A DNA stretch of 56,941 bases, the filler included, from Basidiobolus ranarum (taxonomy: Eukaryota): NCBI GenBank assembly GCA_040143965.1. It is 3 parts of 3 records of this genome, joined end to end, with 100 filler letters (N's around TTAATTAATTAA, not from the genome) between each part and the next. Parts side by side here need not be neighbours in the genome. Positions count along the whole stretch, not along the records: positions 1 to 18,954 come from JASJQH010007138.1; 2 more parts are not named here. One strand, 5' to 3'. Below are positions 80-9,658 of the stretch, in pieces. The position numbers and the translations under genes are program-made. How positions within the stretch are numbered: position 1 is the first letter of the stretch; each line of letters opens with the position of its first letter. The notes below the pieces were generated by a model that searched no databases, had not been told where the DNA came from, and saw nothing but the letters and a program-made list of their open reading frames with translations.

Positions 80-3000
80 CTATTCTACTATACGACCACC
101 ACGCTCGAATGCATTCATACCAGCGTAAATATCCTCATTCAGATGTAAACCTGTCTGAGCCTTACTGACACCACCACGAGTATTGATATAGATAGCATTA
201 AGGAAATCTGGATGACCATAATGAAGTTTGCCTCCAACCTTGGCCATGATACGTTGAGTCAGAGTACCAAAGGTAGCTTCTTTTCCGGCAGCAACATCAC
301 CAAGAAGACCAACACTTTCGGAGAAAATGTACTCACGTGCACCTACGATGGCCACTGGAGGGGGCCCTGGTTCACGGTATTCTGAATAGGGAGATGATTC
401 ATCCATATTGTATTGTTCGAACTCAGCCAAAACATTTCTAATCTTGAGAGCTTCTTCCAGATAATTATCTTGATTGGCATCGACCAATTGAAGATATTCA
501 CCACGAGTGAAGATAACTGAGTGATTCTGATTGTCAGATTTACCATCACCGAGGATTGGATTGCCTGGTAACATAATCCGGAACTTGGGTATACGTTTAC
601 CCTCTTCATCGAATTCGCATTTTCCGTCAATCAAGCAACTGTAGAATTTAGAAGGTTCACCGGAAGGTTCCCCGTTCTCCGTTAGACTAGGTACTTCTTC
701 AAGATATGCGATTTGAAGATCGGGATAAGCTTCAAGAAGGAACTTAACATTTTCCTGTTCTTCCTGACTGAAAGCCGTATACCTCTGCATACTTACAACG
801 AATCTGAACTTTCGACGAGCCATCGTCTCAAGTTCACGTTCAAGACCTTCGTTAAATCCACCATAGCCCTGAACAAGCTCTGGATGCTCGACGCGGTATA
901 AAAGTTTAAGGGCTTTATGATAATTCATAAATCCACTAACAGTACGGTACAGGGTTTGAGAGCGAAGTGAGGACCAAATACGAGTACGGAGAGTATATTC
1001 AGGCGCTGAAGACTTGAAACCAAAGCAGTATAAAGGTAATTCTTCAACCTTTTTGTTACCACGACTCTTATTGGTCTCAAAAGAAGCTTCATTATCCGAG
1101 GGATACATAGTGTTTTCTTCAGCCAGAACTTTGGTATCGTTGACAAAGTTATCCCATTCAACTGGATACAGTTTTTTCAAGTATTCCAACAGAGTGATCT
1201 GTGAGTTTTTATCCTCTTCGCGAATTACCTCCCGAAGGGAAAGAAGAATTTTCTCTCCATAATGAGGGGTAAATACAGTAAACGTGGGCATGTTCTCTAC
1301 AGGAATAGTCTCAGGCAAAGGTGTGGACAGACTTTGAGCAAAGAAGCTAAAGCGACGTTCTGCATCACTACCATTCGGGAAATACTCAGTCTTGAAAGAG
1401 GTATCTTCGTGGGAAACAAAGAATTTTGGAGCTTTCAATGTTGTACGTCCACCTTCACTACTGACAACTTGCTGGTAAAGAAGTTTTTGCACATGCTCTA
1501 CTGATAACAAGTGATCACGGTACATTGAGATGACAATGGCATTCCATATTTGAGAACAAAGAACCTTGGGCTGATACTTCAGCTCCATATCATCAATAGA
1601 TAGTAACTTGGTGTAGATACGCTTGGGAAGGCGAGAGAAAACATTTCTCCAGGGCGACCATATGGAAACACCGAGATAGAAGGAACGTGCGACACTAAAC
1701 AATGAGTTAATGACGACATACCACAAGTAGGTATCCAAAAAAAAGAGGGTCATATCCAACACCACCATAAAGAAGATGGTAATACCACTCATGATTTGAC
1801 AGATAAGAACAGTGTCCGTTTTCTTACATTCAGCTAACGAAAATTGGCCAGTAGCTTTGAAAGGATCCTTGAAAGAAAGAGCAAGGTAGAAGTAACTTTC
1901 GATGTATTTGCAAAGAAATACACAAACCCACAATCCAATTGACATCGCACGATCAGTTTGTTTGAGGTTAGGGAAATTGCTTGTGAAGGTACGGTTGGTG
2001 AGATTCTTACTGGAGCCTGTCTTATTATCACTTAATCGACGGAAAATAAGACCACTGGGGACAATAGCAAATGTGCAAAAAGTAGCCACTGAGATCAACA
2101 GACCGACCAAACCAACAATCGTAGAAATAGCGGAAGAACGATCTGCTATCACTGTGTATGCCCCAGGTACACAATTGAGAATCATAATTCCAAAAAGGTA
2201 TCCAATTCGTTTGAGCAAGATCTTAGAATTAACCCAATTAAGTGGAACAAACCAATATTCACAAAAGGCAGCTATAAGCATGATGAAAGTTGCAACTGCC
2301 CCACCAAACGAGACAACACCAAGCTGGACACCAAGTGGGGTACTCTTTTCGTGCTCTTTAGTGTAGAGCCAGGTGGCATTAGCCATTGTGTAGTAGTAAA
2401 ACATGACGATATGCAAGATCCAGAACCGTGCGAAATTCAGTAAAAGATGGGACCATGTACGGCGTTCTTTATACGTTTTTGCGAAGACCGAATTCCATTG
2501 AACTTCCGCTAGCTTAGCATACCTTTCAGCAGGAGGAAAATCCATCAATTTAACGGTTTTATCTTCGAGAACAATACGTTCGATTCCCCGAGGTGACCAG
2601 AAAAGCTCGTTGATATCATCGTAGCCGATTATGCTGGAATGATCTTTCTCTTTTTTGACGAGTTTCCCATTGATAATATTGTAAGTTTGGTCACGAATGT
2701 ATGTGTACAAGGGAGTAATAACATCTTGAAGAAATTGTCCCTCAGGTAAAGTCTTAATTTCATCTTGCTGTGCTACACTGGTATAATAGTCCCAAGCAAG
2801 TTTGAAAATAAAGCAAATAGCTTCTGGAGTGAAACGTATCACCGACGCTTCACCCCAAATCATAAGATACAAAGCGAGCTGGTTGACTAGATCGTGTTGA
2901 GACATCTGTGACATGGCACTACGCCAGGCCTCTTCAGCGCATTCGGTAGATTCCTGTGCCTCGATATCTTCCTCAGAAAGCTCTTTCTTCTTCAAATTTC

Positions 3001-5856: not shown

Positions 5857-8800
5857 TTACATCATATCCGGACCATCACGGTGTCTTTTCGGAGGTGGTG
5901 GACGTGGTCCTTTTCCTAAAAGTATATTAGATGATCGGATATTTTATGTACGCTGACATTTAGATGATTTACCTCCAAACATTACATCAGAACCATCATA
6001 ACCGCCTTCTTCTCTCGGAGGCTTTCTCTTCATGCTGCTTGGACCTGCACCACGACCCTTGATATAGTAGATGAGATTTATATTTATAGATACCATACGA
6101 AAATGTATTAGTTATATTTACCCTCTTTGAAAAATTACCCATCAGGCCACCACGCCCACCTCTCCCAGCAAAATTAGATCCACCGGAAGGCCCAGTAGGA
6201 GGTGCTGAGCCTGTTGGGGGTAGATGGGCTGGAGCAGAAGGTGGTGCAGTTTGACCAGGAATTACGGCGGTGAGAATCAAATCAAGTAGATCATCAGTAT
6301 TGATTAGAGGACCTATAATAAACAAAGTTGCTTTTTAATGTATGCTTCGTTTGGCTCTATATTCAATTAACTGTACCATTGTACGCCTGTGCGGTTGGAA
6401 GTTGAGTCATGAAAAATCCAACAGCTTCAGGTAGACCTGGAGGAATGTTTGGACGCGAAGAGTTGACAGAAGGTGCGGTTGTTGAGCCACTTGGAGCTGT
6501 TGGCAGTGGTGATTGGCCTTGTGCACCAGGTTGTCCTCGACGTAATGAATCTACCGGTGGTTTATATGATGTCCACTGGTTGAAGTCAGGGCGAGGGTAT
6601 CTTTCTGGATGAATAGGGTCTAGCAAAGCTCTTCTACCGTGTTGGCGGGCGTTGAGATCCTTGGATCGCTCGGCAGTCATAGGCTCAATATTTTTCATAG
6701 TAAGGCTTCGTGTTTTAGTTTTCTTATCTTCCCCTGGATCTGAAAATTATGAGCAAGGTGGATAGAATAATGAGAACAAAATAGCAGTTTCTTTACTTAT
6801 TCCTAGTTCACTTTCAGTTATATAGTTAATATCCAGATAGCTATACCTATCCACAAATCTACCGAGAGCAGTTTCTGAACATCAATGGATTAGAAATCTT
6901 TCAAGTTTGGGAGTAAATTTGGACCCATGGATCGTACCTGTAGTGTAAGTTTCGGTCATACGACGCTCGATCTTTTGTATGGACGTCAAATCGCCATATT
7001 TATTTTCGTAGTCGATAAATACTTTCCAAATATCCACAGCTTTATCCGAAGACAAAGAGGTAAGTGCTCTCTCAAACAGAGCCCGAATATCTAATGCCGA
7101 TGATTAGTGACTATTGTAACATCAGGTTATGTTAAACAAACTTACTATTATCATCATTCATTTGTATTAAATATTCCAAGTATTGAAGAACATAACCGGG
7201 CTCAGAGGCATAGGTTTTGAGACCGAGTTCGAAGATTTTACCGGCAATATTTTGGTCTTTGCTACAGTAATACTCCATCAAAGCTATATACATACAATTA
7301 GTCAGATCCAATAAAATACTTTTATAGCGAGTATGCTCACCGGAACTGATAAATAGATGGTATGTGGTGTCAGGTGATTTCCTAGCCCGACTGAATATTT
7401 GTCTAGCTGCTTTAATTCCCTATGAATCATAACATTGTTCAATCTTCAAGATCACGATATATTCAGCGTCAAATAAATACCTCGGCGCGACGTGCATATT
7501 TCATAAACATGATCCACACTAATGTGAAGGCTTTCTTAACACTCATTAGGTTCTTCTCAATCTGAGCTTCAACTTTAGCCTTTTGCTTCTCAGCGCTTCG
7601 CTCCTTTACTCTCAATCGCTCACGATCTTCACCATCTCGTTCTCTTTCAGAATCCTCTTCATTCTCGACTTCTTCGGATGCTAAGGACTGAACCAATTCA
7701 TTTATTTCCTGTTCACCTGAAGTGCGAATTTCCTCTATGTATTTTTCGATATTCTTCAAAAGAATTTCGTAGAGTTCCCGAGCTCGAGGGTTGTTCTTTT
7801 TGGATTCTTCTAATTCAGCATAAGCAAAATGTAATAGCAAACTATAGAAACACTTACATCGTTAGTGTGTGGCTTCTTACCGAAAAGTACGCATTAATAC
7901 ATACCTTGTTGGTACGACTTCAGTTCCAGCTTTCAAATGGGCCACAGCTTCCTCGGTTTTGCCACACTCGGCGCAGTAGATAGCAAAATCATACCTTGAT
8001 AATATGAAATTTTAGAACTTTGGTAAATGAGAATATACTACTGTCATGGAGGAACGTATATTACCATATTTCAGGATAATACCGTAGTGCTATCAGAGCC
8101 TGTTTATACGCATATATAACACGGGCACTTAACGCAGCCTTGTCTTCTAATTGAAGTGGGTTGGAGCGCTCCCAGGTTATATAATGTTTCCATGCTTCCA
8201 ACTAATCAAATATGTTAGAGTTTGTGTAACTAATACCACTCCCCAGTTCCTAAGATCTACCTGTTGGATCTCTCTGTCAGTCCATTGAGGTGGCTGTGGA
8301 AGAACGTTCTTAGCAAACGAATCAGTGATGGTGCGCATCTCTCGTAACGCAGTTCTCGCGGTCATATACGATGGTGATCTTTCAGCAAGGAATTTCTTGG
8401 CCTATAAAGGTAACGTATCCACATGAATAAAGAAAACAATCGAACGATGTTGCTCAATAACCTCATTACCGTGAGCTTGTTAAGTCCATTCTCAAAAGAG
8501 TCATATTCTTTCCAGATATGTTCTACATTGACCAGTGGAATTGTGATAGCTTTTTGATAAGTTTTACGCATAAGATCCATTTTCTGTTGTTCTTCCCAAG
8601 TATTGTGTGTCTACAAATATTCATGAGTCAACAAAACAAAGAATTTTACTACATGCAAATATGAGCATTTAACGAAAAGTAAAGGGTCACTGTACCTCTC
8701 CGGTACGTAAGAAAAATAAATAATCGCTCCATATAGGTCCAGCTTCTTTGTCAATTCCTATATGCTGTAGAACGAATTCGTAAGCTTTTCCTACCACAGC

Positions 8801-9658
8801 CCTTACATCTGGTCCTGCAGCTGAACCATTTTCTCCGCTGTTCATACGACGTATGTAATTCAGATAGAACTTCCACAATTCTATTGAAGGAACTGATCTG
8901 AGGCAACGAGTGAAAATAGATTCCACGTTTGCAAAATTGTTGTGATTAAGTTCAAACTCGGCATAGGTGATCCAATGGCGAGACTAAAAAAGGGAAAAAA
9001 GACCACGAGTTAAATGTGGATTCATGGCTTAACACTGAAGGAAAGAGAGAATAGTTAACGTGTAAGAATCATAACGTGCAAATGTGTTGATGTCCAAAGA
9101 AAAGTAAGAAAAATGTTGTTCATGGTAGTAAAAATAAAAGAATTCCCTTTCGAGTTGTGATAAAGATAAAAGTAACCTAAACGAAAAGTTCCATGTAATT
9201 CAAAGAGCACCATCAAGCAAGTTTGGGTTTAAATTGCCTACTGATTCAGCCGCTGGGCGGCAACAGTGATTTATTTTTTTTCGCGATTTACACGTTATGA
9301 TTCTCACAGAGGAGAGTGACTGACTTACCGAAGTAGGAAACTGTTTCAGGAAACGCTCGTAACAATCCCTGATCAATTTAATATCGCCAATCAAGTGTGC
9401 TTCAGCTAACAAAGATTGCCAAGCTTCAGTATCAAAAGCATCCAATGCAATCTTCTTCTCAAGAGAAAGGATCCTTCCATTCTTTATTTGTGCTAGATGT
9501 TCGAGCGTTTCTTCGCTTGGAGACTGACTTAATTCACCTACAGTTTCTTTAGCTTCCTGCAAGTTTTCTAAGTTTTTATCTTCAGGTGGAGGGATGACAC
9601 CCACTGGTGGTGTTTCTATCTCACGATCTGCAATCTTTTCTGAGTGGGAGCCTTCCAT
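5857..9658 (-). CDS. RNA14: mRNA 3'-end processing factor Rna14/CstF-77 (HAT repeats), multi-exon
   Basis: Exons encode YERFLKQFPTS-SRHWITYAEFE, IFTRCLRSVPSIELWKFYLNYIRR, MRKTYQKAITIPLVNVEHIWKEY and LLHFAYAELEE. GT-AG junctions join in frame. ATG at 9658, TAA at 5857-5859. Confidence 0.93.

What the first reader, a model, noticed from the sequence alone, without database searches (positions are those of the whole stretch)
8984..9328. Candidate autoregulatory intronic poly(A) site in intron 1 of RNA14/CstF-77
Seen: this intron is 345 nt, whereas the other introns I traced in the window are about 45-105 nt. On the sense strand it has AATAAA (9270-9275), a small GC hairpin (gccgc-tgg-gcggc, 9249-9261) and long downstream U-rich tracts (about 9095-9190). 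Exon 1 reads through into it to a stop at 9200-9202. Known: human CSTF3 and Drosophila su(f) use an early intronic poly(A) site for negative feedback, and yeast RNA14 makes a truncated transcript. Inference: the same feedback operates in this early-diverging fungus, by deep conservation or convergence.
Basis: partly seen in the sequence, partly recalled or inferred. Interest (0 to 1): 0.72.

Follow-up and report, generated by a model that had tools for sequence, protein, structure and literature searches.

The report
Fungal RNA14 intron built for early cutting
A fungal gene for a protein that helps cut and tail messenger RNAs has an unusually long first intron with a cutting signal inside a long RNA stem; the intron stays long in the distant fungi sampled, so the protein probably limits its own production by cutting its own transcript early, as in flies and vertebrates, but no RNA data were available to show it.

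Summary
In detail: Basidiobolus ranarum RNA14 intron 1 is 345 nt (8 of 1030 predicted introns are this long; median 65). Four new lines support a regulated early 3' end. (1) The same intron is long and holds AATAAA in 3 of 3 complete Mortierellaceae-like loci (251-770 nt) but short in 24 distinct distant ones, and is sequence-constrained among Mortierellaceae. (2) The exon-1 frame stays open 42-79 codons into all four long introns (joint shuffle p about 5e-6, post hoc), as expected for a stop-less or tail-tagged cut product. (3) An unnoticed, unique 23-bp stem encloses the AATAAA; it is the strongest such helix in 837 kb. (4) Both PCF11 paralogs have a 292-nt stop-free intron with a conserved AATAAA-led block. 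Against: no transcript data, a strong 5' splice site (weak in human), no such stem in orthologs, AATAAA in 11 of 21 other long predicted introns, and a strong decoy 3' splice site. Verdict: probable (0.6) new variant of the CstF-77 feedback attenuator. The scan noted a similar idea before for YSH1 in another genome.

The parts
9329..9658 (-). RNA14 coding exon 1 (aa 1-110, ends FPTS in the first HAT repeat)
8984..9328 (-). Intron 1, 345 nt, phase 0
9323..9331 (-). Strong 5' splice site TCG/GTAAGT (88th percentile); same 9 letters in L006, L007, L009
9200..9328 (-). Exon-1 frame open for 42 codons into the intron, stop at 9202-9200
9286..9308 (-). 5' arm of the 23-bp long-range stem (intron +21..+43); contains a TGTA at 9292-9289
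9270..9281 (-). A-run with AATAAA (9275-9270), candidate poly(A) signal, unpaired in the fold (0.85); CA dinucleotides 15 and 27 nt downstream (9255-9254, 9243-9242) are candidate cut sites (inferred)
   Evidence: sequence
9259..9265 (-). TGTTGCC after the A-run; also after an A-run in L006 and L007; weak support only
9249..9261 (-).
9084..9190 (-). U-rich tract (44% U), candidate downstream element for CstF/Rna15 (inferred)
9061..9083 (-). 3' arm of the 23-bp stem (intron +246..+268)
9035..9058 (-). Decoy branch motif TTAAC (9058-9054) and acceptor AG ending 9035 (99th percentile); use would add 51 nt with a stop in codon 2
   Evidence: sequence
8984..9013 (-). Branch motif TTAAC (9013-9009), pyrimidine tract and productive 3' splice site (89th percentile)
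8696..8983 (-). Coding exon 2 (aa 111-206)

Best explanation
Intron 1 is an attenuator that sets Rna14 level by a race between 3'-end cleavage and splicing. Shown in sequence: an unpaired AATAAA 11 nt after the 5' arm of a 23-bp stem whose 3' arm is made about 200 nt later, a U-rich tract between them, and a coding frame open past the signal. Inferred: while polymerase crosses the loop the intron cannot be spliced and the cleavage machinery (with Rna14-Rna15 on the U-rich tract) can cut about 15-30 nt after AATAAA, giving a stop-less mRNA for one HAT repeat that is destroyed; if cleavage is slow, the 3' arm zips the stem, which shortens the 5' splice site-to-branch path to about 70 nt, crowds the decoy branch motif 5 nt behind it, and favours productive splicing. 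Inferred by analogy to fly and vertebrate CstF-77: more Rna14 means more cutting, a negative feedback. The long intron with signal appears kept in Basidiobolus and Mortierellaceae (still long, at least 314 nt, in one Mucoromycotina-like locus) and shortened in the distant, probably ascomycete, loci; the 23-bp stem is seen only in B. ranarum.
For: Length in the top 1% of the genome sample. Homologous intron: 3 of 27 distinct complete introns are long (251, 593, 770 nt; intron 2 of the same loci 80-109 nt) and all 3 hold AATAAA, 24 are 46-116 nt with none; shuffle chances 0.26, 0.084, 0.13. Intron 1 aligns beyond shuffles in 5 of 6 Mortierellaceae pairs (0, 0, 2, 8, 8 of 200; sixth 66) while fourfold sites are 0.23-0.53 identical and 0 of 15 intron-2 pairs align (best 26 of 200); L006 and L009 share a 12-letter block around AATAAA. 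Frame open 42, 74, 48, 79 codons; joint p 5e-6, 5e-5 without the discovery intron; 3 of 61 other long B. ranarum introns are open that far. AATAAA looks like this species' signal: within 250 nt after 138 of 253 stops against 34-91 for five same-composition hexamers, and 0.38/kb on the sense strand of short introns against 2.31 antisense; 56.7% of Rhizophagus poly(A) sites use it (PMC10234402). Stem: 21 Watson-Crick + 2 G-U, pairing probability 0.8-1.0, 0 of 200 shuffles, strongest uninterrupted helix in 837 kb on both strands, arms unique in the genome. Prediction met: both PCF11 paralogs have a 292-nt intron with AATAAA, stop-free in frame (p about 0.002 each), block from AATAAA 78 of 82 identical against 84 of 184 fourfold sites; background at most 11 of 237 genes.
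Against: No transcript ends, RNA-seq or feedback test. The 152-aa read-through protein is not in the protein collection and two searches found no Basidiobolus truncated form (weak, few candidates). 11 of 21 other predicted B. ranarum introns >=250 nt also hold AATAAA (several look like fused gene predictions). 5' splice site is strong (88th percentile), whereas in human a weak one is determining (PMC3708835). No comparable stem in L006, L007, L009 (57 of 60, 174 of 200, 13 of 60 shuffles as good), so no covariation evidence. B. ranarum does not align with any of the 5 other introns beyond chance (35-196 of 200); shared 7-mers p 0.03 but 2 of 35 control introns do as well. In L006 the only AATAAA (+600) lies past the in-frame stop (+223). 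TGTTG is not typical of this species' 3' ends (4 of 137). RNA15 and YSH1 introns show no long AATAAA intron. Only 3 complete long orthologs, all one family; the open-frame test was post hoc; intron background rests on my own gene finder (11 of 14 RNA14 introns matched my trace).
Confidence: 0.6

Rival explanations
1. Control by unproductive splicing: the long stem steers the spliceosome between the productive acceptor (8984) and the decoy acceptor (9035), whose use adds an immediate stop and triggers nonsense-mediated decay; AATAAA is incidental.
For: Decoy acceptor scores at the 99th percentile, above the real one (89th); its branch motif lies 5 nt after the stem and a second 10-bp register covers it; long AG-free pyrimidine zones before the 3' splice site in orthologs (328, 338, >=187 nt beyond chance; 95 and 111 nt not) point to unusual 3' splice-site control.
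Against: Orthologs have no AG in the matching zone, so no conserved decoy; 25 of 36 long predicted introns have an internal acceptor scoring >=4; does not explain the open frame at the 5' end of the intron or the conserved AATAAA block; Rna14 is not a splicing regulator (established knowledge).
Confidence: 0.13
2. The intron acts as an alternative last exon that makes a short Rna14 (one HAT repeat plus a 42-79 residue tail) with its own role or a built-in degradation tag; cleavage would lie downstream of the stop.
For: Frame open in 4 of 4 long introns and ended by a stop; the human short isoform carries an intron-coded tail that destabilises it (PMC3708835 section 8); in L006 AATAAA follows the stop, and L009 has a second one after it; a Rhizopus gene model ends at FPTS plus 41 residues (P0039).
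Against: Tails share no evident sequence; the shared TGTTGCC is read in different frames; in B. ranarum no AATAAA or ATTAAA follows the stop; such a protein is not in the collection; the Rhizopus split may be a prediction error.
Confidence: 0.12
3. An ordinary long first intron with a zipper stem that only helps splicing; the AATAAA is dormant and the rest is chance.
For: First introns are longer (11 of 231 >=250 nt); the stem meets the yeast zipper-stem geometry; AATAAA is common in long predicted introns; no B. ranarum-to-ortholog alignment.
Against: Does not explain length kept across lineages at this one intron, sequence constraint at saturated distance, the open frame (p about 5e-5 in orthologs alone) or the PCF11 parallel.
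Confidence: 0.11
4. The stem is the terminal stem of an intron-encoded small RNA, an RNase III/Dicer substrate, or the inverted ends of a small transposon.
For: A 23-bp helix closing a 202-nt insert resembles such features.
Against: No Rfam match in this or five orthologous loci; no C-box before a D-box; arms and intron are single-copy (other matches only at 2-3 mismatches, 4 places); no target-site duplication seen; enclosed region poorly structured (centroid).
Confidence: 0.04

Closest known systems
CstF-77 intronic poly(A) feedback: human CSTF3 intron 3 and Drosophila su(f) (PMC3708835; seen: abstract, passages, sections 6 and 8, text layer of supplements 1 and 5)
   Same: Orthologous gene (E 1.9e-115 to human CstF-77); unusually long early intron with length kept across species; poly(A) hexamer with TGTA upstream and U-rich sequence downstream; truncation in the N-terminal HAT region; frame runs into the intron.
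   Different: [quoted passage not shown]
Saccharomyces RNA14 internal poly(A) sites (PMC3787265; seen: passages)
   Same: Same gene; truncated transcripts sensitive to the supply of 3'-end factors; ends before a stop are nonstop-decay substrates.
   Different: Yeast sites lie in coding sequence, with no intron and no race with splicing.
PCF11 intronic poly(A) autoregulation in vertebrates (PMC7471841, PMC9836349; seen: passages)
   Same: B. ranarum PCF11 paralogs show a long intron with a conserved AATAAA-led block, suggesting the same pair of genes is attenuated here.
   Different: Untested; intron 3 after codon 208; no stem looked for specifically, none enclosed as in RNA14 was examined.
Yeast intron zipper stems (PMC12350175) and long-range pairings proposed to suppress intronic polyadenylation (PMC8052449); seen: passages
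   Same: [quoted passage not shown]
   Different: No probing or compensatory evidence here; the PMC8052449 mechanism is itself a hypothesis; not described there for a CstF-77 gene in the passages seen.

Membership tests
CstF-77/su(f) intronic poly(A) feedback | Host gene is a CstF-77/RNA14 ortholog | tested here: met
CstF-77/su(f) intronic poly(A) feedback | Early intron unusually long for the genome and kept long in relatives | tested here: met
   8 of 1030; 3 complete and 2 partial long orthologs, 24 distinct short ones in distant loci
CstF-77/su(f) intronic poly(A) feedback | Conserved poly(A) signal elements in the intron | tested here: inconclusive
   AATAAA in 4 of 4 complete long introns and conserved between L006 and L009, but no alignment of B. 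ranarum to the others and AATAAA common in long predicted introns
CstF-77/su(f) intronic poly(A) feedback | Weak 5' splice site (vertebrate form) | tested here: not met
   88th percentile, GTAAGT is the commonest donor; human 0.7th percentile
CstF-77/su(f) intronic poly(A) feedback | Polyadenylated transcripts ending in the intron | not testable with these tools
CstF-77/su(f) intronic poly(A) feedback | Site use rises with CstF-77 level | not testable with these tools
   needs experiment
Zipper stem (PMC12350175 definition) | >=6 bp, >=10 nt from 5' splice site, >=20 nt from branch point, linker 42-85 nt | tested here: met
   23 bp; 20 nt; about 50 nt to the TTAAC at 9013; about 70 nt
Zipper stem (PMC12350175 definition) | Formed in vivo or supported by compensatory change | not testable with these tools
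   no second Basidiobolus DNA; no such stem in orthologs; two G-U pairs are only modest evidence
Intron-encoded snoRNA | Rfam match or C/D or H/ACA anatomy | tested here: not met
Small DNA transposon (MITE) | Multicopy terminal inverted repeats with target-site duplication | tested here: not met
   flanks

The most novel reading that the evidence does not exclude
Early-diverging fungi run intron-based feedback on their 3'-end machinery through at least RNA14 and PCF11, the same two genes as vertebrates, but with a different logic: strong splice sites, frames kept stop-free so that cut products go to nonstop decay, and in B. ranarum a long-range RNA stem acting as a transcription-distance timer that opens a window for cleavage and then closes it in favour of splicing. 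Intronic CstF-77/PCF11 feedback would then be ancestral to animals and fungi, or have arisen twice.
Probability: 0.3. Interest if true: 0.78.

Novelty: new variant of a known kind. Interest (0 to 1): 0.63.

Why it matters
Intronic feedback of CstF-77 is described from fly to human and yeast uses coding-region sites; searches (result listings) showed no report for early-diverging fungi. If true, it extends the circuit to a deep fungal branch and gives a 345-nt test system, against 33 kb in human, in which poly(A) signal, stem and open frame can each be mutated. It would directly test the standing hypothesis that long-range RNA pairing protects against premature polyadenylation. Stop-free long introns could also serve as a simple signature to find such attenuators in genomes.

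Tried and rejected
Rfam on the intron and five orthologous loci: nothing near a gathering score. No RNA14 paralog in the genome. Pattern A-run..TGTTGCC: 3 matches against 2 for the control pattern, so not a genome-wide signal. Multiple alignments of all four introns were uninformative. Whole-intron folding of orthologs at chance level (z 1.03, 0.83, -0.50); a 10-bp pairing of a conserved block in L009 is not mirrored in L006. Short database proteins that read into the intron were not used as length evidence, since a shifted exon frame looks the same. Searches for truncated Rna14 proteins returned 1 of 7 and 1 of 8 candidates. 18 of the 56 metagenome loci gave no complete intron in my table (transcript-like, partial, intronless or not parsed). 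double-counted two stretches that lie in the window; lengths and AATAAA counts were redone without them; splice percentiles and the 4 of 137 and 25 of 36 counts were not. The first alt-acceptor score was off by one base and is replaced. The 'other frames' control is trivial for frame +1, because GTAAGT holds TAA. Pfam on PCF11 first exons alone gave 0 hits; identity rests on the CID match and my reading of the predicted proteins. The Drosophila paper PMC24368 was not held. Human exon boundary could not be read from supplements 1 and 5 (pictures); 13 other supplements were not opened.

Full report
What is there. The window is from Basidiobolus ranarum: exon 2 is 100% identical to its annotated rna14, and the pieces match Pfam Suf and human CstF-77. 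Intron 1 (9328-8984, minus strand, phase 0) is 345 nt and joins FPTS to SRHW as in the annotated proteins; the other introns of the gene are 55-85 nt. To get a background I fetched 80 stretches of the genome and trained a gene finder (it matched 11 of my 14 traced RNA14 introns). Without two stretches that duplicate the window, 8 of 1030 predicted introns are at least 345 nt, median 65; 5 of 231 first introns.

Folding shows an uninterrupted 23-bp helix between 9308-9286 and 9083-9061, 21 Watson-Crick and 2 G-U pairs, pairing probability 0.8-1.0 in context, -31.1 kcal/mol on the sense strand against -22.2 on the other. None of 200 shuffles reaches it, the next best among 63 listed introns of 150 nt or more is -17.8, and it is the strongest such helix in 837 kb. 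Its arms are single-copy, so it is no transposon end. It encloses the AATAAA (11 nt after the 5' arm, unpaired) and the U-rich tract, and meets the yeast zipper-stem geometry for the productive branch motif (20 + about 50 nt; definition in PMC12350175, passages). Just behind the 3' arm lie a second branch motif and an acceptor at 9035 that scores above the real one (99th against 89th percentile); its use would add a stop. The 5' splice site is strong (88th percentile).

Orthologs. A metagenome scan gave 56 loci; 38 yielded a complete homologous intron, 27 distinct. Three are long (L006 770, L009 593, L007 251 nt; proteins closest to Mortierellaceae) and hold AATAAA; 24 are 46-116 nt and hold none (I take these for ascomycetes, from recall). 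Two partial ones are at least 187 and 314 nt, without AATAAA in the part seen. Intron 2 in these loci is 69-123 nt. Among the Mortierellaceae-like loci intron 1 aligns beyond shuffles in 5 of 6 pairs although fourfold sites are 0.23-0.53 identical and 0 of 15 intron-2 pairs align; L006 and L009 share a block centred on AATAAA about 170 nt from the 3' end. Against this, B. ranarum aligns with none of them beyond chance and none has a comparable stem.

Open frame. The exon-1 frame continues without a stop for 42, 74, 48 and 79 codons into the four long introns (joint shuffle p 5e-6; 5e-5 for the three orthologs alone); 3 of 61 other long B. ranarum introns are open as far as 126 nt. I noticed this after seeing the data. 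In B. ranarum, L007 and L009 the first AATAAA lies before the stop, so a cut 10-30 nt later gives a stop-less mRNA; in L006 it lies after the stop, with only an A-rich stretch before it.

Is AATAAA the signal in this species? It follows 138 of 253 predicted stops within 250 nt, against 34-91 for five hexamers of the same letters, and is six-fold rarer on the sense than the antisense strand of short introns; in Rhizophagus it marks 56.7% of sites (PMC10234402, passages). But 11 of 21 other predicted introns of 250 nt or more also hold it; several of those look like fused predictions, so the presence of the hexamer is not specific by itself.

A prediction tested. Vertebrate PCF11 is the other 3'-end gene with intronic feedback (PMC7471841, PMC9836349, passages). 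Both B. ranarum PCF11 paralogs have a predicted 292-nt intron with AATAAA, wholly stop-free in frame (p about 0.002 each), with 78 of 82 letters identical from the AATAAA on, against 84 of 184 fourfold sites and 48-60% in the other introns. At most 11 of 237 intron-bearing genes have such an intron. RNA15 and YSH1 do not show one.

How it most likely works (0.6). Inferred: the intron is an attenuator. After the AATAAA is made, polymerase must travel about 200 nt before the stem can close; in that window the cleavage machinery, helped by Rna14-Rna15 on the U-rich tract, can cut and yield a dead-end RNA. If it does not, the stem closes, shortens the intron to near normal reach and disfavours the decoy branch, and splicing yields full-length mRNA. 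Feedback by Rna14 itself is inferred from fly and human (PMC3708835, sections 6 and 8) and from yeast RNA14, whose internal sites respond to factor supply (PMC3787265, passages). None of these steps was observed: RNA runs were not on offer. Rivals: unproductive splicing at 9035 (0.13), a short tailed protein (0.12), a plain long intron with a helper stem (0.11), a small RNA or transposon (0.04).

Relation to what is known. It works like the CstF-77 intronic feedback, but membership is not shown: two defining features could not be tested and the weak 5' splice site of the vertebrate form is not met. Listings of searches showed no report for early-diverging fungi; the library lacks most subscription papers, and PMC24368 was not held. 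Also seen as passages only: PMC5869017, PMC7466969 (no intron sizes), PMC8052449. I rate it a new variant of a known kind, interest 0.63.

Noticed in passing
L156:2445-2736 (-) = G000:C374; L157:2200-2491 (-) = G000:C271: Both PCF11 paralogs: 292-nt intron 3, stop-free in frame, AATAAA at +112/+109 leading an 82-nt block 95% identical between paralogs; the block also holds a CTAAT and an AG that could be an alternative acceptor. No Rfam match.
   Followed up: partly
L158 about 1990-2200 (-) = G000:C7251; L159 about 1430-1610 (+) = G000:C9205: Both RNA15/CstF-64 paralogs seem to have an AT..AC intron (214 and 181 nt) starting ATAGGT, not the minor-spliceosome ATATCC, splitting the Leu codon of AVRN-L-NNY; it holds a 37-nt block nearly identical between paralogs. 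A candidate regulatory intron in Rna14's partner.
   Followed up: partly
L006:1955-2282, L009:2798-3135, L010:1-187: AG-free pyrimidine-rich zones of 328, 338 and at least 187 nt before the 3' splice site, without a clear branch motif, with shared blocks such as GTCCGCA; may mean a distant branch point.
   Followed up: partly
P0039 and P0046 (Rhizopus microsporus), P0024 (B. meristosporus): Public gene models break at this intron: one Rhizopus model ends at FPTS plus 41 residues with the rest annotated separately; the B. meristosporus model starts in exon 2.
   Followed up: no
window 6121-6058 (-): The annotated 'variant 2' of B. ranarum RNA14 retains this late intron and changes the C-terminus. 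The gene's normal 3' flank has ATTAAA but no AATAAA in 457 nt.
   Followed up: no
L042-L044, L047, L048: In these distant loci the homologous intron is 113-116 nt, about twice that of the other short ones, without AATAAA.
   Followed up: no
L075, L076 and window 19055 onward: The window is several contigs joined by N spacers; at least C7139 reappears in it.
   Followed up: yes
L105:8570-8925, L125:1223-1509, L112:7246-7614: Other long predicted introns; one in a ribosomal-protein-like gene (356 nt), two with 12-13 bp stems.
   Followed up: no
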